NCBI GenBank assembly: GCA_041650835.1
Contig: JBAZKL010000004.1
Location: forward strand, 102,900-166,899
Direction: 5' to 3'
DNA: 64,000 nt
Source: Candidatus Omnitrophota bacterium
GTDB taxonomy: Bacteria > Omnitrophota > Gorgyraeia > Gygaellales > Profunditerraquicolaceae
Both the position numbers and the translations under genes were made by a program. Shown here in pieces: positions 1 to 44,404 of this stretch (positions are counted from its first letter, which is position 1; each line of letters starts with the position of its first letter). The notes under the pieces were generated by a model. That model saw nothing but the letters and a program-made list of their open reading frames with translations, did not search any database and was not told where the DNA came from.

Positions 1-1066
1 CGTAAACAGGGACAAAAGGAATTTCATCCAAGCCTAAGTACTTTGTTACATCCTTAAATGTTGTATATGTCCTTCGATTCTTACAATAAGCGGCTGTCAA
101 AACAATGTCTTTTAAGTACGCTTTCCTGGTTTCCAGAAGAGCGCCTATATTGATCAAGGTTTGCGTTATCTGCCCCTGCGCATCATGTAAATAAATTGTT
201 TTTCCTTTTTGGTTGATGCTGGCTGTTCCGGAAATATGGAGCAACGATGAATTATCCGTTCTCACTTCAACTCCGCGCGAAAAAGTCGCTCCGTACCTGC
301 TTGCCTCATTTTGACGATCGCTCCTCATAATTGAAGCGGAACCAACGCGCTTTTTTTTCGGAACAAAGGCGATCAGATCAAGAAAGATCTCTTCCTTTGG
401 CCTGCCCACCCCCTGGATCCCGGTGCTGGCGGGCAAATATGTCTTATTTCCTGATATCAATCCAAATTCCTTAAAAAATTTTGCTCTTATCTTAATAAAC
501 CTTTTATACCAGCTCAGGATCCTCGGAAGATAGATCCAAGTCCGGATAATATGTTTGGCAGTCACGCCCTGCCTGCTTAACACGTCCTGACACAGCTTAA
601 CAATATATTCGACCTGCCGCACGGCAGACTGCTTCCCGGCATTACCGTCTTTCTGTAATCCCGAAACCCCGGAAAGGTATATTCCTTTAAAATCATCCGT
701 TTCGAATACGCGGCCTATGGGTTCTTCATTGAAAAATATCGTATCTACCCTGGTTTTCTTGCCGTCTTGAATCACCCCTATGATCTGAACACCGGCGATC
801 TTACCTCCGACGCAAGGAACGCTCCCGATATATGTAAAAGGTATCTTCGTATTTTCACGCATAACAGCGATACGGCGGTTCCGTATTGCCGCGGTTTCAT
901 CTCTCAAAGAGGGAAGTCCGTATATTTTCTCTAAAAGGACCTTTGCCCTTGCGTCCTTGAGAAACTCATAAAGCTTCGAAAACAAAAAGCTGACCGTAGA
1001 AGCATTTTTGATGGGGCGCGCCGTGAGCACGGTCAGGTAAATAATCTTCAACCCCCTGTACTTCAT
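1..1066 (-). CDS. RidA/YjgF-like fold protein, two tandem RidA-like segments (possibly chorismatase-like). The ATG is at 1066 and the C-terminus runs off the window edge
   Basis: Minus-strand reading from the ATG at 1064-1066 gives MKYRGLKIIYLTVLTAR... with repeated RidA-like segments (IYLSGVSGL, LHISGTASI). The ORF track lists no ORF here, consistent with an edge-truncated frame. Translation was done by eye. Confidence 0.4.
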   Translation of the reverse strand, partial: MKYRGLKIIYLTVLTARPIKNASTVSFLFSKLYEFLKDARAKVLLEKIYGLPSLRDETAAIRNRRIAVMRENTKIPFTYIGSVPCVGGKIAGVQIIGVIQDGKKTRVDTIFFNEEPIGRVFETDDFKGIYLSGVSGLQKDGNAGKQSAVRQVEYIVKLCQDVLSRQGVTAKHIIRTWIYLPRILSWYKRFIKIRAKFFKEFGLISGNKTYLPASTGIQGVGRPKEEIFLDLIAFVPKKKRVGSASIMRSDRQNEASRYGATFSRGVEVRTDNSSLLHISGTASINQKGKTIYLHDAQGQITQTLINIGALLETRKAYLKDIVLTAAYCKNRRTYTTFKDVTKYLGLDEIPFVPVY

Positions 1067-1125
1067 TTCACTCACCCTAACAGATAATCCACGGCCCCAT
1101 TTTAGCAACACAATATTTCTCCTTC

Positions 1126-1440
1126 TCCAAAGTCCATAGTCCACAGTCCATAGTCCGTTGAATTCTGGTAGCTGTCCCCAGAATTCCGTAAAGTTATTTC
1201 CCGTCACGAGATATGTTAATTTTATCACTCTCAACTATTTGAGCAAGTAATAATTGCCGGGGTGAGGTATGAAGGTCGCACACAGGTCGCAGGTAGTCTA
1301 TGGTCCACAGTCCATAGTAAAAGTGCTTATCGTGTCATTCCGGAAAACACGGTGACTGTCACGCTCTATGTGACTGTCACCGTGTTTTCTTGAAATAGAT
1401 TGGAGATCTACTACAATTAAGTGATGTGTCACTGGAACTT
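1126..1440. repeat. Composite MITE-like repeat block: GTCCATAGTCCACAGTCCATAGT units, a copy of the 'ttatcactctcaactatttgagcaagtaataattgcc' family, and a GTGACTGTCAC-N7-GTGACTGTCAC dyad
   Basis: Segments recur at 2640-2760, 6140-6410, 9495-9760 and 31546-31575. Compared by eye. Confidence 0.7.
1390..1417 (+). promoter_or_regulatory. Sigma70-like promoter (TTGAAA-16 bp-TACAAT) carried inside the repeat, facing rightward
   Basis: ttgaaa at 1390-1395 and tacaat at 1412-1417. The same module recurs at 2719-2746. Confidence 0.3.
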
Positions 1441-1442
1441 AC

Positions 1443-2471
1443 CTATGCATCCCTACCCGATGCTTTTTTAAGTAAATCCAGGAATTGAGGTTTAATAGTA
1501 TATTCTAATTCCTCTGCCTTATGGACATCTGCCCAGGCTTTGTTGTATTCTTTTATCAAATAATAGACAACCCCGCGATTGTAATAGGCATCTGCATAGT
1601 TGGGATTTATTTCAATGGCTTTGGTAAAATCCGGGATAGCTTGCATCGAGTATCCCTGTCGGGCATTGGTAAGGCCGCGGTTATGATAGGCCTCTGCACA
1701 CTGAGAGTTTAACTCAATGGCCCTGTTATAATCAGACATGGCCTGAGCATAGTTACCTTGTTCAGTGTAAACAATCCCGCGTTCACCATAGGCGCCTGCA
1801 AAATTATGATCTATTCCTATAGCCTTGTTATAGTCAGCCATGGCTTGAGTGAAATTGTCTTGTTTAGCATAATGCAAACCGCGGTTGTAATAGGCTTCTG
1901 CATATTCAGGGTTTATCTTAATTGCTTTAGTATAGTCAGAGACAGATTGAACGAAGTCACCTTGTTTTTCATAGACATTCCCTCGCTCATTATAAGCTTC
2001 CACAAAGTTTTGATTTAATTCTATGGCTTTATTGAAATCAGCCATGGCTTGAGTGAAATTTCCTTGTTTATAGTAAATCCTGCCACGATTATAAAAGGCT
2101 TCTGCCAAGTGAGGGTTTATTTCAATAACTTTGTTGTAATCAAAGAGAGCTTTAATGAAATTCCCCTGCTCTTCATAAACATTACCACGATTAAGAAGTG
2201 CTTCTGCAAAATTATGATCTATGTCTATAGCTTTGTTATAATCAGACATAGCTTGAGTGAAATCACTTTGTTTTTTAAAGACAAGGCCGCGATTGGTGTA
2301 AGCTTCTGCAAAGTTAGGATTTAATTCTATGGCTTTATTAAAATCAGCCATGGCTTTATTGAAATTTCCTTGTATATAGTACGTCCTTCCCCGATTATAG
2401 TATACTTCTGCGGTTTCAGCATAGACAGAAGAAATGCTGCAAAATAATACTCCTATTAATATAAACACCAT
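1443..2471 (-). CDS. Secreted tetratricopeptide (TPR) repeat protein
   Basis: Signal-peptide-like N-terminus followed by ~9 tandem 34-aa units of the form AEAYYNRG..Y...G.F..A..D..KAIE..PN. Confidence 0.8.
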   Translation of the reverse strand: MVFILIGVLFCSISSVYAETAEVYYNRGRTYYIQGNFNKAMADFNKAIELNPNFAEAYTNRGLVFKKQSDFTQAMSDYNKAIDIDHNFAEALLNRGNVYEEQGNFIKALFDYNKVIEINPHLAEAFYNRGRIYYKQGNFTQAMADFNKAIELNQNFVEAYNERGNVYEKQGDFVQSVSDYTKAIKINPEYAEAYYNRGLHYAKQDNFTQAMADYNKAIGIDHNFAGAYGERGIVYTEQGNYAQAMSDYNRAIELNSQCAEAYHNRGLTNARQGYSMQAIPDFTKAIEINPNYADAYYNRGVVYYLIKEYNKAWADVHKAEELEYTIKPQFLDLLKKASGRDA

Positions 2472-2639
2472 TATTCTTGAACTTTGAAGTTTAATTTTTG
2501 CTTTCCTTCTTATTTTACTTCCCCTGATGGAGGAGTTTCGCGACTAGTGTATGACAGAGTATATCAATTCCGGGGACACATTACGCTGCCCGAGACTTCA
2601 AGTCACAAGACACAGGTCACCCCTCAACAAGCTCGGGGC

Positions 2640-2760
2640 AGGCAAGTAGTCCATGGTCCACAGTCCATAGTAAAAACACGGTGACTGTCACGTTTTTCGT
2701 GACTGTCACCGTGTTTTCTTGAAATAGCTTGGAGATCTAATACAATTAAGTTATGCGCCC
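2640..2760. repeat. Second copy of the GTCCATGGTCCACAGTCCATAGT + GTGACTGTCAC dyad + promoter-like repeat
   Basis: Near-identical to 1300-1430. The pair brackets the TPR gene. Confidence 0.7.
2719..2746 (+). promoter_or_regulatory. Sigma70-like promoter (TTGAAA-16 bp-TACAAT) inside the repeat, antisense to the downstream minus-strand gene
   Basis: ttgaaa at 2719-2724 and tacaat at 2741-2746. Confidence 0.3.
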
Positions 2761-2857
2761 CCGAAACTTAATCCAAACTTTTATGGTGACCGCTCATTTA
2801 TAGAAAATAGTGTCTGCTATTTTCCTAACAAAATCTGCCAGGGTATCAATAAGAATT

Positions 2858-5104
2858 CTAAAAACACTCATCCTTGGGAAATGTATTCAAATTGATACCT
2901 GCCACTTTATTCATTTGCGAATTGATGTCAATCGAACTCACTTCCGTGTGTGCGGGTAGAGCACTACTCTCAAATTTTCCAGCAAGTTCTATTGACCTGC
3001 TGTACCACAAGTTAACGTTGAATTGCATAGGTAGATGTGGAATAGGGGTGGGATCCCAATTTGCTCTTTCATATATAAGTTTTCCATCAATGTACCAGCG
3101 AATTGCCATTTGGCTCCATTCAATCGCATAACAATGAAAGTCTGCCGCAGCATCGAAACCTAAATTGATAATTACCGGAGTGCCCCGGTAGCCATATTCT
3201 AGTTTAGTCCCTTCAGAACCCGGATTGTAAAATACATTCACGAGAACCTTCGTTGTATCCTTACCGAGCAATTCAACATCTATCTCTTGTCGCGGAGAAT
3301 TTCGATGAAGGAAAACTCCAGTAATCAGTCCTGATACTTTTGCTGGCCTGACCACGGCCTCAAACCAACCATATTGATAAAATTGCTGGCTACAGATTGC
3401 ACCTGAAGTATACTCCCGCACCGAAGTATGCTCTTGTTGTAAGGTCAACCTCGCGATATTGTCATGAGCAATCGAGAAATTATTTGGTCTAAAGAGTGCA
3501 AGATTGCTAGGGAAGGTATCGTCTCGTACTGACCAAACCTCCCTTCTGACGTGATGAAATTGCTCGGATATTCTAACAGTTGTTTTTCTGTCCATAGAAT
3601 GATCTTTTATATGGACACCGCACCAATTTTTCTGGGGCACAATCCAAGGAGACAAATCCCTCTTCAGCTTCTTATATGGCAACCTATCCTTCGTAATTTT
3701 CGGATAACATACCGATACCAATTCCCGTTGTCCTTGATCTTCATCGTTAGGGTAGGGTGCGCTCGGATAGTCGCATCCTAAAAATTTGCATAACAACTCC
3801 CACTTATCCTCTTCCTCAACAGGTAGCACTAGTACATTTGATATACTGCGGAGCTCGGAAATCAAATCTCCGAATTCATCCGAATCATACCTCGAGTCTA
3901 TGGCAGGTTCTGTTGAAATAGACTTTTCTCGGTAATCGCAATCCGTAATGACAAAATGAGCATTTTTATACAACTTTGCCAATTCAACTAACCTTGAAGG
4001 AAAGAAAGAACCAATATTTACGTAAGCATCAAAAACTCTCCCTCTCTTTTTTCCAAACAAATTTTCAAACTCTCTTAAGGGTAGTCCCGTAAGATCACTA
4101 CAACATCGATATCCCAACATTGACAGAGCCATCGCCAGCGAACTCAGACCACTGCCAACCCTCCCTGCGGCGATAACAGGCGACGACAACACACGCTTAC
4201 GATATATCAACGGTTTCTCGCAGGTGAGCAAACCGACCTTGGAAAGAATTGGTAAAATCGAATAGGAATTAGCGGAAGGAGAATCTAGACGCTGCTCAAT
4301 AAGGGATTTGCTTGTAGCGAAGATATCTAGCTTTTGAAACTGGAGGTTCATCCACAAATCAACTGGCCCTTGAACTGGCAGCAGGCTCAGAAGTTTATCA
4401 GCTCCTTTTTTTGATAATACGTATCCAGAAAGTTGCCATAATCCACGCTTCGGGCGAAACAATTCTTTACTAACTTGACACTTATTAGCACCTCTTCGAG
4501 CTTCTTTATACGACAAATACAAAATTTCAAAATCGGTGGATGGCTCGTGAATATTCATCAACTCAGTCCACGCCCTATCAAGGTCTCGTGAGAAACACCG
4601 GCGAAAAATGACGTCATCTTCAAGCACTAATGAATAAGGATGCTCCCCTTCAGCTATGAGTCTCCAAATTCCGATATGTGATAAGGCAACCGCTGCTTCC
4701 TGAGGGGTCATTTCCACACATTGCTTTCTTAGTTCATTTTCAGGATCTGATAGTGCGGCAGGATCCACGTACAATTGATCTGCTAACGAATAGTCAGTTC
4801 TAAGTTCAGCACTATCGGGTAACCCCTTGTAGTAGCGTGCGTCGACAGCTGAAAAACGCCTTGCAATAACCGTCATACGTTTTCCGAAGATATCGTTAAC
4901 ATTCCACAATTCTCGTTTTATTCTACGCCATCTATAGTCATGTCTGTCTAGATTTATCACATATACTCTCTGGATGGCCCTAACTTGGTCGTTACTTGAG
5001 CTACAGAAAGCTTTACAACTACGATTCACTCCTATATACCTCGTAAGGAGCATAAATCGATACCACAACCAAACTATAGGTGACAAATACGTAGCTTCGT
5101 TCAT
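2858..5104 (-). CDS. Multidomain carbohydrate-active protein: N-terminal GT25-like glycosyltransferase domain, an unassigned middle region, and a C-terminal GH16 (laminarinase-type beta-glucanase) domain
   Basis: N-terminal RVYVINLDRHDYRWRR matches the GT25 (LPS glycosyltransferase) signature. C-terminal GWFEAVVRPAK...QEIDVELLG matches the GH16 ExDxE catalytic motif. 748 aa. Confidence 0.65.
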   Translation of the reverse strand: MNEATYLSPIVWLWYRFMLLTRYIGVNRSCKAFCSSSNDQVRAIQRVYVINLDRHDYRWRRIKRELWNVNDIFGKRMTVIARRFSAVDARYYKGLPDSAELRTDYSLADQLYVDPAALSDPENELRKQCVEMTPQEAAVALSHIGIWRLIAEGEHPYSLVLEDDVIFRRCFSRDLDRAWTELMNIHEPSTDFEILYLSYKEARRGANKCQVSKELFRPKRGLWQLSGYVLSKKGADKLLSLLPVQGPVDLWMNLQFQKLDIFATSKSLIEQRLDSPSANSYSILPILSKVGLLTCEKPLIYRKRVLSSPVIAAGRVGSGLSSLAMALSMLGYRCCSDLTGLPLREFENLFGKKRGRVFDAYVNIGSFFPSRLVELAKLYKNAHFVITDCDYREKSISTEPAIDSRYDSDEFGDLISELRSISNVLVLPVEEEDKWELLCKFLGCDYPSAPYPNDEDQGQRELVSVCYPKITKDRLPYKKLKRDLSPWIVPQKNWCGVHIKDHSMDRKTTVRISEQFHHVRREVWSVRDDTFPSNLALFRPNNFSIAHDNIARLTLQQEHTSVREYTSGAICSQQFYQYGWFEAVVRPAKVSGLITGVFLHRNSPRQEIDVELLGKDTTKVLVNVFYNPGSEGTKLEYGYRGTPVIINLGFDAAADFHCYAIEWSQMAIRWYIDGKLIYERANWDPTPIPHLPMQFNVNLWYSRSIELAGKFESSALPAHTEVSSIDINSQMNKVAGINLNTFPKDECF

Positions 5105-5949
5105 ATATCAATCACACCCTGGAATATCAGGGACCTCCATATTCGCCAGTTACGCTTATCGTTTCGGTAGCTTAAAGGCCATTTACTAATAGAGAAAGAA
5201 TCCCAATCATATAGAAAGTCAAAATCCTGGTTATTCCTTTCGCTTTCCAGACAATTCCAATGTCTGACTAAACTTGCAGATAAATTTCCGGGTCCCGTAG
5301 TAGACTGTATATCAACTCGTTTTTCGGGACTATTTAAAAGGATTAATGTTGCACGTTCCAAGGCCTGTTGAATAATTGGATGATCTGGCGGTGCAATAAT
5401 TGGATTGTTGTTCACGTAAAAAATCCAGTTAGGAGAGTTTGCGTTCAGATTTATATAAATGCATTCCTGAATCATTTTGCCGCTAAAATGATCGTAGCAT
5501 AAAGGTTGTACTTTGAGTCGATCATCGTTGAAAAAGGATTGAAGACCTTTACCCTGATAGACTTCGTCAGCATCTACGTAAAAACCTCCTGATTTTAAAA
5601 GGTAACAAAGACGAAAGTAGTCGCACCGCATTGCCGGGTGGGAACAAAGGTCAAAGGCTGCAACGTGTTTTATGCCAAATCGTTCGTGGATAAAATTCCT
5701 AGCCGAACAGTCATCAAAAATAACTCGCTTAAAACCTTGTTGAATAAGCGACTTCCAGCTGTCTAGACACTCCTGAACGTCGACAGGCACATCATCTAAG
5801 TCATGCCAAAACTGAATAATTACCCTCGGGATATCGATGACACTATGTCGTTTCTTGGATGAGACAGGTTTTTGAACCAGTTTTCGGATACACTCGGAAC
5901 GCAGGTTGTCATCTTCTTCAATATGTGAAATATCTTCCTTGGGCTTCAT
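5101..5949 (-). CDS. GT32-family glycosyltransferase (DXD sugar-binding region, Och1/Gb3-synthase-like)
   Basis: IPRVIIQFWHD matches the IP(K/R)IIHQ(I/F)W motif. FYVDADEV supplies the DXD. There is a 4-bp overlap with the downstream gene, suggesting an operon. Confidence 0.6.
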   Translation of the reverse strand: MKPKEDISHIEEDDNLRSECIRKLVQKPVSSKKRHSVIDIPRVIIQFWHDLDDVPVDVQECLDSWKSLIQQGFKRVIFDDCSARNFIHERFGIKHVAAFDLCSHPAMRCDYFRLCYLLKSGGFYVDADEVYQGKGLQSFFNDDRLKVQPLCYDHFSGKMIQECIYINLNANSPNWIFYVNNNPIIAPPDHPIIQQALERATLILLNSPEKRVDIQSTTGPGNLSASLVRHWNCLESERNNQDFDFLYDWDSFSISKWPLSYRNDKRNWRIWRSLIFQGVIDI

Positions 5950-6139
5950 TATTTCTCCTAAAGGGATTATATTATGCAGAATGGGAAAAAAGAAAAGATT
6001 ACGAAAGAAAACTACGGAAGAGCTTCGAGTCTAAAATCAACATAACACAGTTTCCATATAATCAGGCCATGCTTCCCTAGTGCCTTCACTCAAAATCATT
6101 TCCGGATTACCAAGCTGGATATACTTTATACATTCTGCA

Positions 6140-6410
6140 GACAATTCCAGAAACACTTAATTATCTGGATGTTTTTTAGGTCCAGACTTCCCCTTTCACA
6201 GTCCCCTCCCAGCTAACTCCTCCAATTTCCCTTTAAACTCTTTAATATAGAAGACGGTTCTCAATCCCATCATTTCCTTCAAAAAAGACGGGTTTCTACT
6301 ACCTATAATCTTATCACCCCCAACTGTTTGAGCAAGCAATAATTGCCTAGGATCAGGCGCGGGTGACCTGCACCTTTTAAAAGAAAGATAACGGCATGAC
6401 ACCGATTCCT
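6140..6410. repeat. ~250 bp repeat element, copy A (cacttaattatctgGatgttttttaggtccagacttcccctttcacagtcccctcccag...ttgagcaagcaataattgcctaggatcaggcgcgg)
   Basis: About 90% identical to 9495-9760 in the same orientation, with a partial third copy at 1190-1270. The 68-aa ORF inside it differs from its homologue at 9550-9747 mostly by non-synonymous changes, so it is probably non-coding. Confidence 0.75.
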
Positions 6411-6617
6411 AAACGTCGGTAAATTTCTCGCAAGGAATCGATGTTAAATAAAAAACCCCACCATAAAATAGCAGGGTTTTTTATTTTAACTCCTCGCGCC
6501 ACCCAAACTTTTCTATAACTATCCATGTAGGAATGAATTACAAGAAGAAGGGTAACAGCAGCACGATTATGGCTTGAGAATTAATAGCGAGCTGGCCTCT
6601 TTTATTTATAAACAAAA

Positions 6618-7292
6618 TTAAGAAATGAGTTCTATTCTGAAAAGATTATCTTTTTCGAAAACTCGAAATTCAAAATTACATGAATCGCATTTCATTTTTT
6701 CCCCAATTTTTCTCAATGGTACCTCAACATTTTTATTACATCTACCGCAATTAACGTAAATTCGATAGCAGGAAGAACATAAGCCAATCATCATAGTTCT
6801 TGGTTTTCCATCCTTTTTATCAATAAATGCTAGATGAGAATCCCAATATATTAAAGAAAGCGGACAATCAGTTCTGTTAACAGTACAATATTCACAACAT
6901 GATAGAGAAAAATATGGCATTTTTTTATAGTCACTGTTTAAATCAATAGTCTCCAATGTAATGTTGCCTTTTCTAGCCCGTTTTGAGGCAGCCTTAGAAA
7001 ACCCTTTTGTTGTTATCATTAATCCCATATCAACATTTACATCATCAAGAAATCCATAAAAAGAATCTATTCTAGGGAGAGTAATCTTTGCATTAAAACA
7101 TTTACAATCTACTACGATTACTACTTTTTTATTGTTTAATCTAGTGAAAATCAGTATATCGATTTGTCGTTTTCTATTACTGTGTCGGCCATCTAAAAAA
7201 TATTTACGAAAGATTCTGGTCTTTTCTGGGCATAATCTTCGTAAATAAGCAAATATTTGCCCCTCATAATCACGCCATTTAACCATGGCCAA
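6618..7292 (-). CDS. Mrr-like PD-(D/E)xK restriction-endonuclease-fold protein with a C-terminal Cys-rich zinc-ribbon region
   Basis: RQIDILIF...VVIVVDCKCF matches the Mrr_cat D...(D/E)xK core. The C-terminus carries CCEYC...C...CSSC...CGRC...CDSC. Separated by 4 bp from the upstream gene. Confidence 0.55.
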   Translation of the reverse strand: MAMVKWRDYEGQIFAYLRRLCPEKTRIFRKYFLDGRHSNRKRQIDILIFTRLNNKKVVIVVDCKCFNAKITLPRIDSFYGFLDDVNVDMGLMITTKGFSKAASKRARKGNITLETIDLNSDYKKMPYFSLSCCEYCTVNRTDCPLSLIYWDSHLAFIDKKDGKPRTMMIGLCSSCYRIYVNCGRCNKNVEVPLRKIGEKMKCDSCNFEFRVFEKDNLFRIELIS

Positions 7293-7296
7293 CTCC

Positions 7297-8163
7297 TCAT
7301 TGAAAAAAGTCAGGGAGGGAATCCCTCCGTGCTTGTAGCTCTTCTTTCGTAATCAATTTCATTAAATACAATAAAGAATTGCCTAAATCAGTCCACCAGT
7401 ATGAAAATTCAACAACTGTTTTTTCGCCTCCGGCGGTAGGGGCTCTAGTTGAAGCCGTATTTAAGCCAAGAATCCCGTGCGTGCATAAGTTAGCTATGGC
7501 AGGCACATGCCTTTCAAAAGCCCCCCTTAAATGATTTTCTTTTAACCGACTTATTAACTCGTCCTCATAATCCTTACGCCCTTGAGGTGAAGTATGGAAG
7601 GCGAAATTTCGCTTCCCACATTGGGTCATTATTACTTCAAACTCGTAGGGCCCTAAGAGCATTCTCGCTTGTTTAATTCGTTTTTCATTTTCAATCTCAT
7701 AGGACTTGATTGCATCAACGATTCGATTAGCCAAAGGTTCAATGCTTTTTGTAAGATCATTTTCGTACTCATAAAAGATCAAATCTTTTGTATCGAAAGT
7801 GGGGTTGTATCCCTTTTCTGCAATCAATATTTGCCTCTCTTTTGGTTGTGTGGCATGAGCAATTCCTAATTCATAAAAAACATTAGGATTGGTTTCAGTC
7901 GTTAATACACCCAATACAATCTGGGCTGTCATTAGATGATCTAAGACATTTATCCAACCTGACGTCATTCTGATATCTTCTTTTGTCCTATGTGCATAGA
8001 GAGCCCTTTTGTCTGAATAACACAAAATATCATTTGCTTTTACGATAGCAGGATTGATTAAATTTTCATAAACACCATCGTATTTAGCAGAAAACGGCAT
8101 AACGACAAAAATTTCCCGAGAATTTATTCCTTTTAGTTGTGGTTTATGGTCATACGTATACAT
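7297..8163 (-). CDS. Nucleoside 2-deoxyribosyltransferase-like (NDT/SLOG-type Rossmannoid) domain protein with an uncharacterised C-terminal half
   Basis: IFVVMPFS...YDGVYE corresponds to the AGPFF-like loop. FYELGIAHATQPKERQILIAEKG corresponds to the catalytic (E)-x-G-x-A...GKP pattern of NDT-like enzymes. Confidence 0.45.
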   Translation of the reverse strand: MYTYDHKPQLKGINSREIFVVMPFSAKYDGVYENLINPAIVKANDILCYSDKRALYAHRTKEDIRMTSGWINVLDHLMTAQIVLGVLTTETNPNVFYELGIAHATQPKERQILIAEKGYNPTFDTKDLIFYEYENDLTKSIEPLANRIVDAIKSYEIENEKRIKQARMLLGPYEFEVIMTQCGKRNFAFHTSPQGRKDYEDELISRLKENHLRGAFERHVPAIANLCTHGILGLNTASTRAPTAGGEKTVVEFSYWWTDLGNSLLYLMKLITKEELQARRDSLPDFFQ

Positions 8164-8397
8164 TATCTACCTCAATATCATTCACAATTCCGGGGACACT
8201 GGACTTGCCCTGATAAAATGGACACCTAGTTGACGTGTGCTCTTCGCTCGTATTCCACGGGGCTCACATATCCCAAGGTCGCAGAATTCCAGGGACAGCT
8301 ACCACAATTATTTACCATTACTTTTCGGCCCAGGCTTCTGCCTATGCAAAACACGTCCCGTTATCGCCTCAAGACGGTCGATAGAATTCCGGTAGGA

Positions 8398-9375
8398 CTA
8401 AAAGCATTGAACGGAGATTAACGGCCTACTGCCTTCTTGAGGCGCCCCACCATTGATATATACCTTCCATTGTATATCGTACTGGAACCTCTTATCCCAA
8501 CGATCGTGATCCATAAAGTAATGAAGCTTGGTCATTCCATCTTCACCGAAAAGCTTTAGTTTCTTCCCAGGCAATAAATCACTCGTAAATTGCTTTTTAG
8601 CGATGTCGGCTAAGCCTGAAAAAGAAAATATCAGACATAGATAGCCGGGCTTGTCGCGTGAGTCAGTCCCTCTTAAATGAGGATAATTCCACTCCGTTTT
8701 TTCAAGATAGGCTTTTGGAAAATAAAGGTCGACGTCGACATCTTCAAATTTTCTGGAACTTCTATTTTCAATTTCAAAAACAAACGAATATTTGTGCAGA
8801 TCCTGAGTCATTTCAAGTTTTTTGAAATCTGCTGTGATTTTCGTTGATGTCTCCGGCTTAGAATATTCACTCTTAAGCTTTTCGTGCGCATCCCATTCGT
8901 CCTTGGTCAAATCCCGATCAGCAATCGGAAAACCCATATCTCCACAAACCATTTTCAATGTCTCAACAAACTCTTGCCGAGAAAAATATTCCTTCCCTTG
9001 GCTCACCAATGTTAAAGGCGCGCCGAAATCACTTGCTGAAATATTCGTAAACAGCGGATAAACTTTTTTATCTTTAGCCCATACCGCAGCTGATTCCCAC
9101 CAAACCCATGATGACGTCTTTGATTTAACAGAACATATAGGAATTATCGCTTTGGCGTGTTTAAGTTTTTCTTCCATCATTATCTTTAGGGGATTTTCAC
9201 CGGGCGGGATATCTCTTTTGGCAACGAATGCTTCAATCTTTGATTCGGTTAAACGATGGATAATATCCCTAATAAAATCCGCTAACGCCAGTTCCTCACC
9301 AGTGTAACTAATGAAAACGATCGGCTTTTCAAAATCGACACGCCTTAATTCATCAATTAAATCGCCCATTGCCAT
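8398..9375 (-). CDS. TIR-domain protein (N-terminal ~150 aa TIR) with an uncharacterised ~170-aa C-terminal domain
   Basis: KPIVFISYTGEE...FIRDI...IEAFV...AKAIIPICS...SSWVWWESAAVWAKDK.VYPLF is a typical bacterial TIR pattern, including a candidate catalytic Glu. Confidence 0.65.
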   Translation of the reverse strand: MAMGDLIDELRRVDFEKPIVFISYTGEELALADFIRDIIHRLTESKIEAFVAKRDIPPGENPLKIMMEEKLKHAKAIIPICSVKSKTSSWVWWESAAVWAKDKKVYPLFTNISASDFGAPLTLVSQGKEYFSRQEFVETLKMVCGDMGFPIADRDLTKDEWDAHEKLKSEYSKPETSTKITADFKKLEMTQDLHKYSFVFEIENRSSRKFEDVDVDLYFPKAYLEKTEWNYPHLRGTDSRDKPGYLCLIFSFSGLADIAKKQFTSDLLPGKKLKLFGEDGMTKLHYFMDHDRWDKRFQYDIQWKVYINGGAPQEGSRPLISVQCF

Positions 9376-9494
9376 AAATAGCTCCTATTAGTCGCACTTA
9401 CCTTGTCTTACCGGCCATGTGCGCTTGAATTTCCGCTTCGTTTATACGCTTACGTCCGGTCAACTCGTCCGCTGTAGGCGTCCGCCCTATAGGG

Positions 9495-9760
9495 ACAATT
9501 CCGGGGACACTTAATTATCTGAATGTTTTTTAGGTCCAGACTTCCCCTTTCACAGTCCCCTCCCAGTTAATTCCTCCAGTCCCCCTATAAACTCTTTAAT
9601 ATAGAGGATGGTCATAATTCCCCACATTTCCTTCAAAAAAGACGGATTTCTACTACCTATAATCTTATCACTCTCAACTGTTTGAGCAAGTAATAATTGC
9701 CTAGGATCAGGCGCGGATGAATAGGCCCTTTTAGGAAAGAAAAACATAGAAAAAACGAGA
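9495..9760. repeat. ~250 bp repeat element, copy B, direct repeat of 6140-6410
   Basis: cacttaattatctgAatgttttttaggtccagacttcccctttcacagtcccctcccag...ttgagcaagtaataattgcctaggatcaggcgcgg. Confidence 0.75.
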
Positions 9761-9877
9761 CGGCCACTGGGGCCTTATTTTTAAACATTTTTTTGCTTGA
9801 TTTAAGGCTTATTTTAATATAAAATACTTTCTTGCAATTCTAAGAAGAGCTTTCCATAAATTATAAATATAGATCAT

Positions 9878-9950
9878 TCCCCTGTAGCTCAGTTGGTAGA
9901 GCAAGTGGCTGTTAACCACTGGGTCCGAGGTTCGAGCCCTCGCGGGGGAG
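9878..9950 (+). tRNA. tRNA-Asn (anticodon GTT)
   Basis: Cloverleaf by hand: acceptor TCCCCTG/CGGGGGA, D arm GCTC-AGTTGGTA-GAGC, anticodon arm AGTGG-CTGTTAA-CCACT, T arm CGAGG-TTCGAGC-CCTCG, 73 nt. Confidence 0.85.
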
Positions 9951-10123
9951 TAAAATTTGCCCGTGTTTTACGGACGGCAAATTTATCCCGAGCGTGCGAA
10001 GAAAATTTCGCATAATTTGCATACCGTTAAAATAATCCAGGTGGCAAATTAAAGGAATTTTCGAGCGTTTACGCGAGGGACAAATTACCCATAATATCCG
10101 AACTTTTTGGATATTGGGGACAA

Positions 10124-10160
10124 AAAAGCCCTCAATGCTGAAAAGTGTTGAGGGCTTTTT
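10124..10160 (+). terminator. Rho-independent terminator-like hairpin (agccctcaa..ttgagggct + T5) downstream of tRNA-Asn
   Basis: GC-rich inverted repeat followed by a T-run. Confidence 0.5.
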
Positions 10161-10172
10161 AATTAAATAAAT

Positions 10173-11879
10173 ATGAAATTACAATCAATACACATTAAGC
10201 GTTTTAAAAACATTGCAGATGCTTCTTTTGATGTCTCTGCAGTAAACGTGTTAATTGGCGCAAATAACTCAGGTAAAAGCACCATTCTTCAGGCACTTCA
10301 TTTTTCCATAGGACTGTTGCAGACTTTAAATCTCGAAGGCAAATTAATAGGGAAAGATTTGTCGGTGAGCTTAAGTCCGACTCAATTAATTTATAGTCCT
10401 TGCGACAATGTATATTCTTTGGGTCCTAATGGAAATTTAAAAGAACCGAAAGAAAGCGCAATTAATATTGATTTTGTTTTAGACAATGGTAAATGTCTAA
10501 AAATTAGTATAAGCAAAGGTAGGAATCGAAATATTGTTATCGGAATTAATGACGCAACAATCGCTAAGACCCTTTCAAAAATCGAAAAACCTTTTACTAT
10601 CTTTACCCCTGGATTAGCTGGAGTGGCAAAACAGGAAAACTATGTCTCTGACGGTGTCTTACTTAGAACGATTGCTCGAGGTGATGCCAATATCGTCTTA
10701 CGCAATACATTATATCGCTTATGGAAAACAAAAGATACTCATTCGGATGGCAGATGGAATGACTTTGAAAACGACCTGCATGAACTTTTTCCTAATACAG
10801 CTTTCACCGTTGATTTTAATCCTTCTGTCGATGAATTTATTCGAATTGCAATTGATTCTGGAAACGGCTTTGTTCCTCTAGAAATAGCGGGGACGGGATT
10901 GTTGCAAGCAATTCAAATTTTATCGTATATTCATTATTTTAATCCCTCTGTACTTGTTCTAGATGAGCCGGACTCCCATTTACATCCAAATAATCAACGA
11001 CTATTGTGTAAATTATTAACATTGGTTGCGCAGGATCGGCACATTCAGATATTGCTTAGTACTCACTCTAGGCATGTTGTCGATGCGTTAAAGAATTTAG
11101 CAGAGTTGTTTTGGATTAGAAAAGGGATCGTTGATAAGGCGGATGACGGTGATGATCTTCCAATTTTATTGGATATAGGCGCACTTGATGTTAAAGAACT
11201 TATTACTCAGAACAAAACTAAGTGTATTGTATTAACTGAGGATGAATTAAAGCAGAACTTGGAACTACTCCTTCAGTCGTCTGGATTTGAGATGGATAAT
11301 ACTGTTGTTTTACCCTACTACGGCTGTACCTCTCCGCACAATTTAAGAGCCCTGATGCATGTGATAAAAGGAACTAATCCAAAAGCAACGGTAATTATTC
11401 ATAGGGATCGAGATTATTTGACAGAAATTGAGCAAGCTGAATGGGCTGAAAATATTCGAGCACTTAAAGCTGAACCTTTCTTGACACCAGGCACAGATGT
11501 GGAAAGTGTCTTTTTAAATGAAGATCACCTTGCCACCTTGAATCCAAAGACAAAAAAAGAAGAATTTAAAAAACTGATAAGTAAAGCAATGAAAGAGGTC
11601 AGAGAGGAAAATATTAAGTTGTATATAAATTCGAGAATTGAAATTGCAAAAAAGACAGGCACATTTGGGAAATTAGACATTGGGGCTTTGGGCGTTGAGG
11701 CTCCGCATCTGTACCAAAAGAACCCATATGGGTTGAGGCATGGAAAAACTGTACTACGTAAATTACGAAGTATCTTCCAGGCTGAGAATAAAACAAACCT
11801 TATTATTTCTAAGGCAACGACCTTTATTAAGTTGTTTGAGTTGCAGGAGATTGCAAAAAAGATTTTTAAATTAAAATAA
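10173..11879 (+). CDS. OLD-family nuclease (N-terminal ABC/AAA-type ATPase plus C-terminal TOPRIM), standalone (class 1-like)
   Basis: Walker A GANNSGKST. Walker B/D-loop VLVLDEPDSHLHP. C-terminal TOPRIM-like IVLTEDE ... IIHRDRD. No adjacent helicase gene. Confidence 0.65.
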   Translation: MKLQSIHIKRFKNIADASFDVSAVNVLIGANNSGKSTILQALHFSIGLLQTLNLEGKLIGKDLSVSLSPTQLIYSPCDNVYSLGPNGNLKEPKESAINIDFVLDNGKCLKISISKGRNRNIVIGINDATIAKTLSKIEKPFTIFTPGLAGVAKQENYVSDGVLLRTIARGDANIVLRNTLYRLWKTKDTHSDGRWNDFENDLHELFPNTAFTVDFNPSVDEFIRIAIDSGNGFVPLEIAGTGLLQAIQILSYIHYFNPSVLVLDEPDSHLHPNNQRLLCKLLTLVAQDRHIQILLSTHSRHVVDALKNLAELFWIRKGIVDKADDGDDLPILLDIGALDVKELITQNKTKCIVLTEDELKQNLELLLQSSGFEMDNTVVLPYYGCTSPHNLRALMHVIKGTNPKATVIIHRDRDYLTEIEQAEWAENIRALKAEPFLTPGTDVESVFLNEDHLATLNPKTKKEEFKKLISKAMKEVREENIKLYINSRIEIAKKTGTFGKLDIGALGVEAPHLYQKNPYGLRHGKTVLRKLRSIFQAENKTNLIISKATTFIKLFELQEIAKKIFKLK

Positions 11880-11942
11880 TACGTCAACCTCCTTGCTTTT
11901 TACGATTAATCCCTACGTAAACTGTCACCTAAAAGTTCGGAT

Positions 11943-11980
11943 ATTGGGTGAGTTAAAATAAAAAGAACCCGCTATTTTCA
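11943..11980 (+). terminator. Rho-independent terminator (gaacccgc..gcgggttc + T5) after the OLD gene
   Basis: Inverted repeat plus T-run immediately 3' of the stop. A second hairpin lies at 12015-12055. Confidence 0.55.
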
Positions 11981-12156
11981 TGGCGGGTTCTTTTTATGAC
12001 GCAGCTCTCACTTCTTAAGCCGTTGTAAGTTAAAAACTTGCAACGGCTTTTGCTTTGGATTATAATACAACTTAAATAAACGGGCGCTGTCCCTTATTAT
12101 TCGCAAAAAGGATACCGCTCATATAAACATTCATTAACAAAACAGTTGAGCTTCAT

Positions 12157-13185
12157 ATGAATACCGCTCCATTTGAATTGGGTCCTATTCGTCCCGTGGA
12201 CGAGGCCAAAAGCCTATTGATCCGCACCACACGCGGATGTCCCTGGAATCGATGCGAATTTTGCGTCAATTACAAGGATATGAAATTTTCCATGCGCTCA
12301 CTTGAGGAGGTCAAAGGCGACATCGTCGCCGCGGCAGAGTATTACGGAAACCTGACCTTCGAAACATGCTTCCTGCAGGATGGCGACAGCTTCCTGATGA
12401 AAACCGCCGAACTCATCTCCCTTCTCACCTTCTTGAAGCAGACATTTCCCAAACTCAAACGCATCAGCAGTTACGGCCGCGCTCAAACCATGATCCGCAA
12501 ATCAGTCCAGGAAATGCGGGCCATCTGCGAAGCCGGACTGAACAAGCTTTATTGCGGCATGGAATCAGGCTCGGACAAAGTATTGAAAAAGGTAAATAAG
12601 GGCGCAACCTCCGCCGATATTTCCACATCCAGCCGCAGGGCCAAAGAGGCAGGAATGTCTATTTCAGAATTCATCATCCTCGGCCTGGGCGGACAGGAAT
12701 TGTGGGAGGAACACGCCCGTGAAACGGCCAGGGTTTTGAGTGAGATCAACCCTCACTTTATCCGGGTCCTCACTATCGGAGTCAAACCCGGCTCCGGGCT
12801 TTCCCGGCAAATGGCCGCCGGGCAATATACCCTTCAGACCGAAAAGAATATCATCGAAGAACAACGCTTGCTGATTGAGAATCTCAACGGCATTACCAGC
12901 CACTACGCCAATCATCATGACGTTGACCTTCTGATGGAAGTCGTAGGCCAGTTTCCCCAGGACAAGCCTCGTCTCTTGGCCATCATAGACCGCTATCTCT
13001 GTCTTCCGGAAGAAGACGGTATCAATTTCACCTTGGGAAAACGGCTGGGTATCTACCAGCGGCTCGACGACATGAACTCCGCTCATTTGCGCAAACAGGT
13101 AGCCGCCCAACTGCTTAAAATCCGCGACTCCTATCCCGACCAGATGGATGAAGTCTTCCACCATCTTCGCGCCCAGATCGTCTAA
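12157..13185 (+). CDS. Radical SAM domain protein with non-canonical CX4CX2C cluster spacing
   Basis: TRGCPWNRCEFCVNY, plus downstream glycine-rich SAM-binding-like segments. Confidence 0.5.
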   Translation: MNTAPFELGPIRPVDEAKSLLIRTTRGCPWNRCEFCVNYKDMKFSMRSLEEVKGDIVAAAEYYGNLTFETCFLQDGDSFLMKTAELISLLTFLKQTFPKLKRISSYGRAQTMIRKSVQEMRAICEAGLNKLYCGMESGSDKVLKKVNKGATSADISTSSRRAKEAGMSISEFIILGLGGQELWEEHARETARVLSEINPHFIRVLTIGVKPGSGLSRQMAAGQYTLQTEKNIIEEQRLLIENLNGITSHYANHHDVDLLMEVVGQFPQDKPRLLAIIDRYLCLPEEDGINFTLGKRLGIYQRLDDMNSAHLRKQVAAQLLKIRDSYPDQMDEVFHHLRAQIV

Positions 13186-26859: not shown

Positions 26860-27060
26860 CCCCGTTAGAAACGCTGTTTCTAACGGGGCAGGCGGGCATG
26901 ACAAGAAGAGCGTCATTCCCGGTCTCTTAGATAGCTATAAGCGGGAATCTATGCTTTTAGATGCCCGCTTAGAGCCGAGTGAACATGCGGGCATGACACG
27001 TGAAGCACTACCCGTTTAGAGCCATGTAAGCTATACCCAATACGTCATCCCCGCATGCTT
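26860..27060. repeat. REP-like intergenic hairpin repeat cluster (gcccgc-ttagagccgagt-N-gcgggcatgaca units)
   Basis: Related copies at 31262-31400 and 32690-32730. Multiple inverted repeats. Confidence 0.6.
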
Positions 27061-27113
27061 TAAGCGGGGATCTAAACATCTAACTCTCCAATTGGCCTTG
27101 TCCCTTGGCCCCC

Positions 27114-31460: not shown

Positions 31461-31576
31461 AACCTTATTATTGTGTCGGCGCCGCACTCGCTGCCCAGAA
31501 AGGGCGAACCCAGCACTCCTATTAAACTGGAGAAAAGTGACTGTCACGCTTTTTGTGACTGTCACTTTTCTCGTCA

Positions 31577-31823: not shown

Positions 31824-31871
31824 CAAAACCATCTCCTTACGGTTAATGGTTTTGCGCTAGAGGAAGAAAAA

Positions 31872-31960
31872 CGGAGAGGCTGGGATTTGAACCCAGGGTC
31901 CCAGTTTCCCAGGACAACTCATTAGCAGTGAGTTGCTTTCGACCGCTCAGCCACCTCTCC
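31872..31960 (-). tRNA. tRNA-Ser (anticodon GCT), type II with a long variable arm
   Basis: Reverse complement folds by hand: acceptor GGAGAGG/CCTCTCC, anticodon arm ACTCA-CTGCTAA-TGAGT, T arm CTGGG-TTCAAAT-CCCAG, 89 nt. Confidence 0.85.
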
Positions 31961-31991
31961 AAATTTCTCTAATTTTACTGTCGGAAATTTG

Positions 31992-43254: not shown

Positions 43255-43403
43255 CAGAAGACACCCTTGTCTATAGCTTAGTTCTATGTTAGTTAAACTT
43301 GTTTACCATGGAATCTATCCAATAAATGTAACATACACTCATGGATTTGTCAAATAAATTTAAGGTGAGCGGGCTAACTCCAACTTACTTATAAATAAAA
43401 TAC

Positions 43404-44395: not shown

Positions 44396-44404
44396 TTTCG
44401 CTCC

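What the first reader, a model, noticed from the sequence alone, without database searches (positions are those of the whole stretch)
1100..11900. AT-rich, repeat-dense genomic island carrying several cassettes next to tRNA-Asn
Composition and boundaries:
- Composition drops visibly to about 35-40% GC by eye, versus about 50% in flanking core genes.
- The low-GC region runs from the TPR gene through the OLD gene.

Cassettes inside it:
- Repeat-flanked TPR gene.
- GT25-GH16 fusion plus GT32 gene.
- TIR/NDT/Mrr trio.
- tRNA-Asn.
- OLD nuclease.

Repeat families inside it:
- GTCCATAGTCCACAGTCCATAGT blocks.
- The ~250-bp element.
- Short caattccggggacac units scattered at 2565, 8190 and 9495.
- A 13-bp direct repeat (ttcggatattggg) on both sides of the OLD gene at 10100-10120 and 11925-11940.

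This pattern is typical of a horizontally acquired defence/glycan-modification island assembled from repeat-mediated cassettes.
Basis: seen in the sequence. Interest (0 to 1): 0.6.

Follow-up and report, generated by a model that had tools for sequence, protein, structure and literature searches.

The report
Variable defence and glycan island, Omnitrophota
A 12-kb stretch around a tRNA-Asn gene in an uncultivated Omnitrophota bacterium is a real, strain-variable island of foreign-looking defence and sugar-modifying genes separated by shared repeats; this is an ordinary kind of island, but it carries one unannotated protein family that keeps turning up next to defence genes.

Summary
The window is from a Candidatus Omnitrophota genome.
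- **Composition:** positions 1100-11900 have 39.3% GC. No 10.8-kb window in the remaining 52 kb falls below 45.1%. The seven genes inside have GC3 of 0.34 against 0.56 for the rest, and all have atypical codon usage.
- **Comparison with a relative:** metagenome contigs about 90% identical in DNA keep both flanks. About 545 nt carrying an HNH gene replace everything from before the window start to 9622. A small GIY-YIG gene replaces 9952-12007.

- By comparison with the relative, the variable block also takes in the RidA/FkbO-like gene at 1-1066.
- tRNA-Asn sits inside the island, not at its edge. There is no integrase and no duplicate of the tRNA 3' end.
- TIR/NDT/Mrr is not a conserved trio. 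The TIR gene occurs on its own elsewhere. The "NDT" gene belongs to an unannotated family, with an NDT/TIR-like fold plus a C-terminal domain, found in defence neighbourhoods with varying partners.
- The 13-bp direct repeat is part of a significant 18-nt inverted repeat around the OLD-like gene.

Each unit is bounded by a shared 5' element and a 3' hairpin/heptamer element. This suggests stepwise addition by recombination, which is not proven.

The parts
1..1066 (-). RidA/FkbO-like gene (396 aa in full; its 3' end runs off the window). It is part of the block absent from the close relative, but its codon usage is core-like.
   Evidence: Rid family hits. A 100% identical protein lies on a 184-kb ENA contig. 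GC3 is 0.50 and synLL is +0.02. L166/L167 share only this gene (88% nt) in a different operon.
1126..1441 (.). Composite intergenic repeats IG1: heptamer tract 1126-1156 (TCCATAG x4.4), palindrome 1161-1186, 45-nt core of the 250-nt element at 1217-1261, and 'B' repeat 1289-1441 (heptamer unit, 20-bp hairpin 1343-1389, 60-nt tail).
1443..2471 (-). TPR lipoprotein-like gene (342 aa, about 9 TPR units; its 102-nt periodicity is repeat family D1).
   Evidence: GC3 0.34
2565..2770 (.). IG2 repeats: motif CAATTCCGGGGACAC at 2565-2579, heptamer unit 2585-2675, and second 'B' copy 2642-2770 with hairpin 2673-2717 followed by a U-run on the minus strand.
   Evidence: RNA fold -45.9 kcal/mol, z = -5.7; 92% identical to the unit after the RidA gene
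2858..5104 (-). GT25 + (weak sulfotransferase) + GH16 beta-glucanase-like fusion, 748 aa.
   Evidence: synLL -0.11
5101..5949 (-). GT32-type glycosyltransferase (DXD sugar-binding region), overlapping the next gene by 4 nt (operon).
6140..6386 (-). 250-nt element, copy 2, upstream of the GT32 operon. It ends in a degenerate motif at 6142-6156.
   Evidence: 88% to 9494-9742. Not coding (differences by codon position 8/5/5). No special RNA fold (z = -0.36).
6448..6492 (.). Terminator-like hairpin downstream of Mrr, similar to the one at 11950-11997 and to L004 9772-9839.
6618..7292 (-). Mrr-type (PD-(D/E)xK) restriction endonuclease-like gene with a C-terminal zinc-ribbon-like tail. The likely start is the ATG at 7286, 10 nt after the upstream gene.
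   Evidence: GC3 0.23
7297..8163 (-). 288-aa protein of an unannotated family: N-terminal NDT/TIR-like flavodoxin fold with an invariant NxNV(F/Y)YELG motif (E98), plus a helical/winged-helix-like C-terminal domain.
   Evidence: No Pfam, PADLOC, NCBIfam or PDB sequence hit. At least 314 homologues. AF2 pLDDT 90.7. Fold hits to TIR-STING, DNPH1/Rcl, NDT and CAP12 TIR.
8185..8309 (.). IG4 repeats: motif at 8185-8199 (21 nt upstream of the 288-aa gene start) and palindrome at 8284-8309 (inverted copy of 1161-1186).
8398..9375 (-). TIR-domain protein (325 aa): N-terminal TIR plus C-terminal beta-sandwich. It is a stand-alone unit.
9494..9742 (-). 250-nt element, copy 1, upstream of the TIR gene. 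Its first ~90 nt (9623-9711) are 93% identical to the sequence upstream of the HNH gene in the relative. It ends in the motif at 9496-9510.
9877..9951 (+). tRNA-Asn (GTT). With its upstream region (9774-9950) it is conserved at 97.7% in the relative.
10093..10110 (.). Left arm of the 18-nt inverted repeat flanking the OLD-like gene.
10173..11879 (+). OLD-like ABC-ATPase with a Toprim-like C-terminal region (568 aa). It has no UvrD/GajB or AriB partner and is absent from the close relative.
11928..11997 (.). Right arm of the inverted repeat (11928-11945) and bidirectional terminator hairpin (11958-11997). Sequence conserved with relatives resumes at about 12007.

Best explanation
This is a strain-variable ('flexible', additive-type) genomic island of about 12 kb at the tRNA-Asn locus of a Candidatus Omnitrophota chromosome.

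**Structure.** In the direction of transcription (minus strand), the left arm is a tandem series of independent transcription units. Each is preceded by a copy or piece of a ~250-nt 5' element that ends in GTGTCCCCGGAATTG. Most are followed by a terminator hairpin and/or a heptamer unit. The units are:
- TIR + beta-sandwich protein.
- NDT/TIR-like protein with Mrr nuclease.
- GT32 with the GT25-GH16 fusion.
- TPR protein.
- RidA/FkbO-like protein.

On the 3' side of the tRNA, a separate module carries an OLD-like ATPase/Toprim gene between 18-nt inverted repeats.

**Shown.**
- The cargo has foreign codon usage.
- It is absent from a relative about 90% identical in DNA, which has a single el250-HNH-heptamer unit in the same place.
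- The boundary repeats are shared between units and with that relative.

**Inferred.**
- Units were added one by one by homologous or unequal recombination between these shared boundary sequences, using DNA taken from related Omnitrophota. No island-encoded recombinase was involved.
- The 5' element supplies a promoter or leader, and the hairpin supplies termination.
- The TIR, NDT-like/Mrr and OLD-like genes act as anti-phage defences.
- The GT genes vary a surface glycan.
For: **Composition and codon usage:**

**Organism:**

**Independent assemblies carry the same DNA.**
- The ENA 184-kb contig is 100% identical over window 1-11111.
- A Logan contig encodes the same 288-aa protein with the same TIR and Mrr neighbours.
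- An NCBI 365-kb contig carries the identical protein.

**Close relative L070+L071.**
- rSAM, MCP and carbamoyltransferase are 85-91% nt identical.
- The far-left flank (TPR_12, cyclophilin-like) is 89.5% nt identical.
- Homology resumes exactly at the heptamer block and at the 250-nt element core.
- Between them lies only an HNH gene.
- OLD is replaced by a GIY-YIG gene.

**Variable tRNA-Asn to rSAM interval:** gaps of 0.6-3.6 kb with different genes in L002, L003, L005 and L008.

**The RidA gene moves as a single gene:**

**Unit boundaries:**

**Defence character.**
- PADLOC and Pfam hits for TIR, Mrr and the OLD-like ATPase-Toprim.
- Homologues of the 288-aa protein sit inside a type I R-M operon, next to OLD+UvrD, next to a PLD-domain gene, next to a trypsin-like protease gene, and next to an integrase.
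- The closest TIR homologue lies beside DarTG and a ThsB-like TIR.
Against: - Only one close relative was available, assembled from two short contigs. Deletion in that relative, rather than gain here, cannot be excluded by comparison alone; only the codon usage argues for gain.
- The RidA-like gene has core-like codon usage.
- The repeat copies are few (2-4 each) and 85-93% identical, so recombination at them is inferred from positions, not observed.
- The generic sigma-70 scan finds no promoter on the transcribed (minus) strand of the 250-nt element, and promoter-like hits in the region overall are no more frequent than in shuffles.
- The TIR unit lacks a heptamer/hairpin 3' boundary.
- No function has been tested for any gene. 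The Toprim part of the OLD-like protein is supported only by a PADLOC ATPase-Toprim model spanning residues 259-476 and by motifs read by eye.
Confidence: 0.7

Rival explanations
1. It is a classical integrase-mediated island or degraded prophage that inserted as one piece into tRNA-Asn.
For: - It lies adjacent to a tRNA gene.
- In relative L004 a large serine recombinase lies upstream of the same rSAM gene.
- In relative L070 the GIY-YIG insert ends with a 14-nt copy of the tRNA 3' end.
Against: - No integrase, recombinase or phage gene occurs in window 1-12000 or in the next 10 kb to the left.
- The window holds no second copy of the tRNA 3' end, even with up to 3 mismatches.
- Most of the island lies on the 5' side of the tRNA.
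- The internal units each have their own boundaries, and one of them (RidA) occurs alone elsewhere.
Confidence: 0.08
2. It is an integron-like cassette array (a cluster of attC sites without an integrase), and the repeats are attC recombination sites.
For: - The genes are co-oriented and promoter-poor.
- Each unit is followed by a structured repeat.
- The cargo is defence genes, as in some chromosomal integrons (general knowledge).
Against: - No intI gene occurs in 74 kb.
- The hairpin is a perfect 20-bp stem followed by a U-run, without R''/R' GTTRRRY cores or extrahelical bases.
- Two units are multi-gene operons.
- The 250-nt element lies 5' of genes and shows no fold.
- The boundaries are heterogeneous.
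Confidence: 0.04
3. It is an ancestral native region. The low GC reflects local mutational or expression bias, and the relative simply lost it by deletion between repeats.
For: - Only one close relative was compared.
- Repeats could mediate deletion as well as gain.
- The RidA gene is core-like in codon usage.
Against: - All seven cargo genes deviate in synonymous codon choice, not only in GC.
- The nearest homologues of the TIR and 288-aa proteins (67-82% identity) sit in unrelated contexts in other Omnitrophota.
- The same interval carries unrelated cargo in four other species.
Confidence: 0.12
4. It is an assembly or binning chimera that joins low-GC DNA from another organism to this genome.
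For: The source is a metagenome-assembled genome.
Against: - An independent ENA assembly contains the identical DNA across window 1-11111 and on into core-like flanks. Two further assemblies (Logan, NCBI) carry the identical 288-aa protein, the Logan contig with the same neighbouring genes.
- The boundary repeats and tRNA-Asn are shared with the relative.
Confidence: 0.02

Closest known systems
Defence islands / flexible (additive) genomic islands at tRNA-proximal hotspots
   Same: - Low-GC cargo with atypical codon usage.
- Presence/absence between close relatives at a fixed chromosomal position.
- A mix of defence genes and glycosyltransferases.
- Different cargo at the same spot in other species.
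   Different: - No integrase or other mobility gene.
- The tRNA lies inside the island rather than at an end.
- Units are separated by lineage-specific shared repeats: a 250-nt 5' element, a hairpin and heptamer tracts.
Chromosomal integron cassette arrays (CALIN)
   Same: A co-oriented series of small units, each with a structured repeat at its 3' end. Defence cargo.
   Different: - No IntI.
- The repeats lack attC features.
- Some units are multi-gene operons.
- An extra 5' element is present.
Cyanobacterial STRR heptanucleotide repeats and REP-like intergenic hairpins
   Same: Short tandem heptamers (TCCATAG-type; CCGAnAA in the flank) and perfect hairpins, confined to intergenic DNA and conserved in position between relatives.
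   Different: - A different phylum and a different sequence.
- Here they coincide with the ends of variable units.
- No RAYT/TnpA gene was seen.
OLD-family nucleases (P2 Old, class 1; GajA of Gabija; AriA/AriB of PARIS)
   Same: - N-terminal ABC-ATPase (AAA_15/AAA_21).
- Best PDB sequence hit is an OLD-family protein (6p74).
- PADLOC hits to Old, GajA, AriA and ATPase-Toprim models.
- C-terminal ...LTED... and ...HRDRDY... motifs resemble Toprim.
   Different: - Single gene with no UvrD/GajB or AriB partner.
- The Pfam OLD-like_TOPRIM model is not matched.
- All scores are far below the curated cut-offs for named systems.
Single-protein TIR-like/NDT-like defence proteins such as Swarozyc (DUF4062 + auxiliary domain; bioRxiv 10.64898/2026.05.01.722283) and CAP12/Pycsar TIR effectors
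   Same: The 288-aa protein has an N-terminal TIR/NDT-like fold with an invariant Glu at a comparable position (E98, versus E97 in KpSwz). It also has a C-terminal auxiliary domain and lives in defence neighbourhoods.
   Different: - No DUF4062 or TIR Pfam match.
- The motif (NPNVFYELG) is of the NDT/DNPH1 type.
- The activity is unknown.
- Here it is tightly linked to an Mrr nuclease gene.
Thoeris (ThsB TIR + ThsA)
   Same: A TIR protein lies next to a protein with a nucleotide-binding Rossmann-like fold and a nuclease.
   Different: - No SIR2/SLOG or Macro ThsA.
- The TIR gene and the 288-aa gene do not co-occur in any of the 9 other contexts examined.
- 234 nt of island repeats separate them.

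Membership tests
Genomic island (horizontally acquired, variable) | Composition and codon usage differ from the host genome | tested here: met
   GC is 0.393 versus 0.477. GC3 is 0.34 versus 0.56. All 7 genes have negative synLL.
Genomic island (horizontally acquired, variable) | Absent or different in close relatives that keep the flanks | tested here: met
   L070/L071 (about 90% nt) keep both flanks and replace the block by HNH and GIY-YIG genes. Four other species carry other cargo.
tRNA-integrated integrative element | Integrase or recombinase gene at one end | tested here: not met
   None among the ORFs of 1-12000 or in 10 kb further left.
tRNA-integrated integrative element | Direct repeat of the tRNA 3' end at the distal junction | tested here: not met
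   Only the tRNA itself matches at up to 3 mismatches.
Integron / CALIN | IntI tyrosine recombinase | tested here: not met
   No integrase domain in the ORFs scanned in the window or in L168. The whole genome was not available.
Integron / CALIN | attC sites (imperfect palindrome with R''/R' cores) after each cassette | tested here: not met
   The repeat after two units is a perfect 20-bp hairpin plus U-run without GTTRRRY cores. No attC model was available to run.
MITE / IS-derived element (for the 250-nt element) | Terminal inverted repeats and target-site duplication | tested here: not met
   No inverted-repeat pair maps to the two ends of either copy. Copies share only the internal sequence.
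OLD-family nuclease | N-terminal ABC-type ATPase | tested here: met
   AAA_15 at 3e-25, AAA_21 at 9e-23, PDB 6p74 OLD at 7e-7.
OLD-family nuclease | C-terminal Toprim nuclease domain | tested here: inconclusive
   The PADLOC ATPase-Toprim_I-B model aligns to residues 259-476. E...DxD-like motifs are visible. No Pfam Toprim or OLD-like_TOPRIM hit was found, even at E up to 10.
Gabija / class 2 OLD / PARIS | Partner gene (GajB/UvrD helicase, or AriB) | tested here: not met
   The gene stands alone between tRNA-Asn and a terminator.
Nucleoside 2-deoxyribosyltransferase family (PF05014) | Sequence match above the Pfam gathering score | tested here: not met
   No hit for 34 family members. Distant phage relatives reach only 17-24 bits against a cut-off of 28.8.
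Nucleoside 2-deoxyribosyltransferase family (PF05014) | Flavodoxin-like fold with the catalytic Glu in a ...xELG motif | tested here: met
   The AF2 model matches DNPH1/Rcl, NDT and TIR folds. E98 in NVFYELG is invariant. Equating this motif with the NDT catalytic motif rests on my own knowledge.
Thoeris | ThsB-type TIR together with a ThsA effector (SIR2-SLOG or Macro) | tested here: not met
   The ThsB_TIR hit is only marginal (7e-4, below cut-off). There is no SIR2, SLOG or Macro domain. The neighbours are not conserved.
Known defence systems in PADLOC-DB v2 (for the 288-aa protein) | Match to any PADLOC model | tested here: not met
   0 families at E up to 0.01.

The most novel reading that the evidence does not exclude
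The shared boundary sequences are the working parts of an undescribed cassette-accretion system. These are the 250-nt 5' element ending in GTGTCCCCGGAATTG and the 3' hairpin/heptamer unit. The system would be integron-like in outcome but would have no IntI or attC. It would stack promoter-plus-gene units beside tRNA-Asn in this Omnitrophota lineage. One of its cargoes, the NDT/TIR-like + C-terminal-domain family of the 288-aa protein, would be a new anti-phage defence protein that pairs with interchangeable effectors (Mrr, PLD, protease, helicase).
Probability: 0.12. Interest if true: 0.75.

Novelty: new member of a known kind. Interest (0 to 1): 0.38.

Why it matters
Defence and glycan islands are common, so the island itself is unremarkable. 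Three things have some value.

1. **A clean example from an uncultivated phylum.** It comes from Omnitrophota, whose mobile and defence gene repertoire is little described. Both junctions are resolved against a relative, and there are no mobility genes. That points to recombination at conserved intergenic repeats as the route of gene gain.

2. **An unannotated protein family.** The 288-aa family has at least 314 homologues in the 90%-identity collection. About 28 cluster representatives at 50% identity score at E of 1e-30 or better, and full-length matches make up most of the best-scoring of them. The superfamily of its N-terminal domain has 8300 cluster representatives and many relatives on viral contigs. 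The family has no Pfam, NCBIfam or PADLOC match, gives a confident NDT/TIR-like model, and recurs in defence neighbourhoods. It is a reasonable candidate for experimental defence screens.

3. **A warning about reading operons from neighbours.** The apparent three-gene TIR/NDT/Mrr system dissolves once homologue contexts are compared.

Tried and rejected
- **Rfam scan of 1-13000 at E up to 1.** Only tRNA-Asn is significant, and no repeat matches a known RNA family.
- **Coding test of the 65-68-aa ORF inside the 250-nt element.** Differences are spread 8/5/5 over codon positions, with 14 in nonsynonymous and 4 in synonymous codons, so it is not coding.
- **RNA folding of the 250-nt element.** It folds no better than shuffles (z = +0.8 and -0.4), so it is not a structured RNA. 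The B hairpin is strongly structured.
- **Sigma-70 and terminator consensus scan.** Counts equal the shuffle expectation, so it is uninformative for this phylum.
- **Exact look-up of the rSAM protein.** It is not on record.
- **Repeat motifs in 69 related loci.** They are absent, so the repeats are lineage-specific.
- **Scans for the element core.** The viral scan gave 0 hits. The metagenome scan gave only the relative plus two short, probably chance, matches.
- **Sequence searches of the 288-aa protein.** The PDB gave nothing. Plasmid and phage collections gave one weak N-domain hit and none.
- **Thoeris-like reading of TIR + NDT-like + Mrr.** Rejected, because the neighbours are not conserved.
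- **Integron, MITE and tRNA-integrase models.** Rejected on their defining features (see the membership tests).

Full report
**Source and observation.** The window comes from a Candidatus Omnitrophota genome. The radical-SAM gene at 12157-13185 is 83-90% identical in protein to Omnitrophota MAGs. Proteins of the region match NCBI entries named Candidatus Omnitrophota exactly.

The composition claim holds. Positions 1100-11900 have 39.3% GC and the remaining 52 kb have 47.7%. No 10.8-kb window elsewhere falls below 45.1%.

The suggested codon-usage test is decisive. The seven genes between 1443 and 11879 have GC3 of 0.23-0.39 (mean 0.34), against 0.56 for 44 other ORFs. All seven have a negative synonymous-codon log-likelihood under the usage of the rest of the window, whereas only one of the 44 others does (p = 7e-8). 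The gene at 1-1066 is core-like (GC3 0.50).

**Genes.** Pfam, PADLOC and NCBIfam confirm the following.
- A TPR protein.
- A GT25/GH16 fusion with a weak sulfotransferase segment.
- A GT32-type transferase overlapping it by 4 nt.
- An Mrr-type nuclease.
- A TIR_2 protein.
- tRNA-Asn(GTT).
- A 568-aa ABC-ATPase of the OLD/GajA/AriA kind. Its C-terminal half is covered by a PADLOC ATPase-Toprim model and shows LTED and HRDRDY motifs, but it has no Pfam Toprim hit.

**Repeats.** All the repeat families are real.
- The ~250-nt element has two full copies (6140-6386 and 9494-9742, 88%) and a 45-nt core copy at 1217-1261.
- The 15-mer CAATTCCGGGGACAC forms the end of that element. It also occurs alone at 2565 and 8185, with degenerate or palindromic relatives at 6142, 8284 and 1172.
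- The TPR gene is flanked by two 130-150-nt 'B' repeats. Each consists of a heptamer unit, a perfect 20-bp hairpin and a 60-nt tail.
- On the transcribed strand the hairpin is followed by U5 and is far more stable than shuffles (z = -5.7), so it looks like a terminator.
- The 250-nt element is neither coding nor specially folded, and no repeat matches Rfam.
- The 13-nt direct repeat around the OLD-like gene is weak alone. It belongs to an 18-nt inverted repeat, 10093-10110 / 11928-11945, that none of 300 shuffles reproduces.

**Comparison with relatives.** A metagenome scan for the core of the 250-nt element found two overlapping contigs, L071 and L070, from an organism about 90% identical in DNA. 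An ENA contig, L168, is identical to window 1-11111 and extends 10 kb further left.

The relative matches the window genome as follows:
- On the right from about 12007 onward (rSAM, MCP, carbamoyltransferase).
- At tRNA-Asn with its upstream region (97.7%).
- At the first ~90 nt of the 250-nt element (93%).
- On the far left from the heptamer block that follows the RidA-like gene, about 96 nt before the window start, into the TPR_12 and cyclophilin-like genes (89.5% over 1.75 kb).

Between these anchors the relative has only about 545 nt with an HNH endonuclease gene, where this genome has 9.7 kb. It also has a 558-nt stretch with a small GIY-YIG gene where this genome has the OLD-like module.

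In four more distant Omnitrophota the tRNA-Asn to rSAM gap ranges from 0.6 to 3.6 kb and holds unrelated genes. In a fifth, a serine recombinase and other low-GC genes lie upstream of rSAM.

The RidA/FkbO-like gene alone, from 19 nt before its start to its stop, is 88% identical to a gene that sits in a different operon in another metagenome organism (MR_MLE-GH3-437 aa-RidA). Mosaicism therefore goes down to single genes.

**Anatomy in the direction of transcription (minus strand).**
- tRNA-Asn.
- 250-nt element, then the TIR gene.
- Palindrome plus motif, then the 288-aa gene and Mrr, then a terminator.
- 250-nt element, then GT32 and GT25-GH16, then tail/hairpin/heptamer unit.
- Motif, then TPR, then tail/hairpin/heptamer unit.
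- Element core, palindrome and heptamers, then RidA, then small hairpin/heptamer unit.
- Conserved flank.

The relative has the minimal version: element core, HNH, heptamer unit. The copy of the element next to the tRNA is closer to the relative's copy (93%) than to its paralogue in the same genome (88%). The paralogue is only 85% identical to the relative's copy. This fits units arriving with their own boundary sequence from related genomes.

No integrase, transposase or phage gene lies in the island or in the 10 kb to its left. The tRNA 3' end is not duplicated. The most economical mechanism is recombination at the shared boundary sequences, but this is an inference from positions only.

**The supposed TIR/NDT/Mrr trio.** The 288-aa protein belongs to a well-conserved family.
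- More than 314 homologues down to about 47% identity occur in Omnitrophota, Nitrospirota and Ignavibacteriales.
- About 28 representatives at 50% clustering score at E of 1e-30 or better, and most of the best-scoring ones match over their full length. Its N-terminal domain superfamily has 8300 representatives at E up to 1e-3. At least 80 viral contigs carry relatives of that domain.
- The AlphaFold model is confident (pLDDT 90.7).
- Residues 14-155 form a flavodoxin-like fold whose best matches are TIR-STING, DNPH1/Rcl, NDT, CMP hydrolase and CAP12 TIR.
- The motif NxNV(F/Y)YELG with E98 is invariant.
- Distant phage relatives give sub-threshold PF05014 hits.

'NDT' is therefore correct for the fold and superfamily only.

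In seven other genomic contexts this gene lies:
- between hsdM and hsdS of a type I R-M system;
- after OLD-Toprim + UvrD;
- before a PLD-domain protein;
- before a trypsin-TPR protein;
- before a ResIII helicase;
- before unknown 540-552-aa proteins;
- once next to an integrase in what looks like a prophage.

It is never next to a TIR gene.

The TIR protein has a TIR domain plus a C-terminal beta-sandwich. Its closest homologue (82%) lies beside DarT-DarG and a ThsB-like TIR. A 45% homologue stands alone among housekeeping genes. In the window, 234 nt of island repeats separate the TIR gene from the 288-aa gene, while 10 nt separate the latter from Mrr.

The trio therefore consists of a stand-alone TIR unit plus a two-gene unit.

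**Verdict.** Its main reading, a horizontally acquired defence/glycan island, is supported by composition, codon usage and comparison. Five points need correction:
- the left boundary;
- the role of the tRNA;
- the trio;
- the direct repeat;
- the status of 'repeat-mediated assembly', which is plausible but unproven.

The kind of feature is known. The modest novelty lies in the integrase-free unit structure and in the unannotated NDT/TIR-like family.

Noticed in passing
L010 2758-3408 (Omnitrophota MAG RA.bin37, JAKLGJ010000003.1): The tRNA-Asn gene is split into halves (2758-2793 and 3370-3408) by 576 nt. The insert contains a group I intron (RF00028, 62 bits against a gathering score of 50, at 3123-3362). 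ARAGORN does not call this tRNA.
   Followed up: partly
L070 958-1515 (Ga0105098_10002412): In the close relative, a small GIY-YIG gene lies between tRNA-Asn and rSAM. The insert ends with GAACCCTCGCGGGG, a near copy of the tRNA 3' end. It is flanked by ACTTCGACTCG...GCTCAGT...CAAG repeats, as if inserted at the tRNA 3' end.
   Followed up: partly
window 15339-16442: The GDSL/SGNH hydrolase gene is missing at this position in relatives L070, L020 and L004, although its codon usage is core-like (GC3 0.60). It is a second indel between close relatives.
   Followed up: partly
window 31537-31565: This is the only copy of the island's hairpin repeat (GGTGACTGTCAC-type) outside the island. It lies about 300 nt from tRNA-Ser (31871-31961).
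   Followed up: no
window 43000-45600: A second low-GC spot (0.40) lies next to tRNA-Arg (43402-43477). ORF 43799-44395 has 0.377 GC and no Pfam hit. The next ORF, 44405-45601, carries CCG/CCA-type tandem repeats (44976-45078) and also has no Pfam hit.
   Followed up: no
window 12010-12072: The leader upstream of the radical-SAM gene holds a 15-bp hairpin (12017-12049) overlapping TTGCAA-17-TATAAT. It is 87-95% conserved in three other Omnitrophota species (81% over a shorter stretch in a fourth), about as well as or better than the coding sequence. It may be a regulatory element.
   Followed up: no
L168 11290-11485 (left of the window) and L071 1600-1760: The intergenic region upstream of the TPR_12 gene holds 5-6 tandem ~26-nt repeats (ATTCGGGnATGACnAnnnGG) and a CCGAnAA heptamer tract, conserved in position in the relative. 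A related piece occurs at window 27036-27079.
   Followed up: no
L086-L165 (IMG/VR contigs): Eighty viral contigs encode proteins with the same N-terminal NPNVFYELG domain (25-35% identity) fused to varied C-terminal regions. Some reach sub-threshold PF05014 scores.
   Followed up: partly
L004 2934-4394 and 4000-9000: In relative SO_2017_GW1_19, the DNA upstream of the same rSAM gene is also low in GC (0.31-0.40). It carries a large serine recombinase and a PHP-like gene, so it is a different mobile insert at the equivalent place.
   Followed up: no
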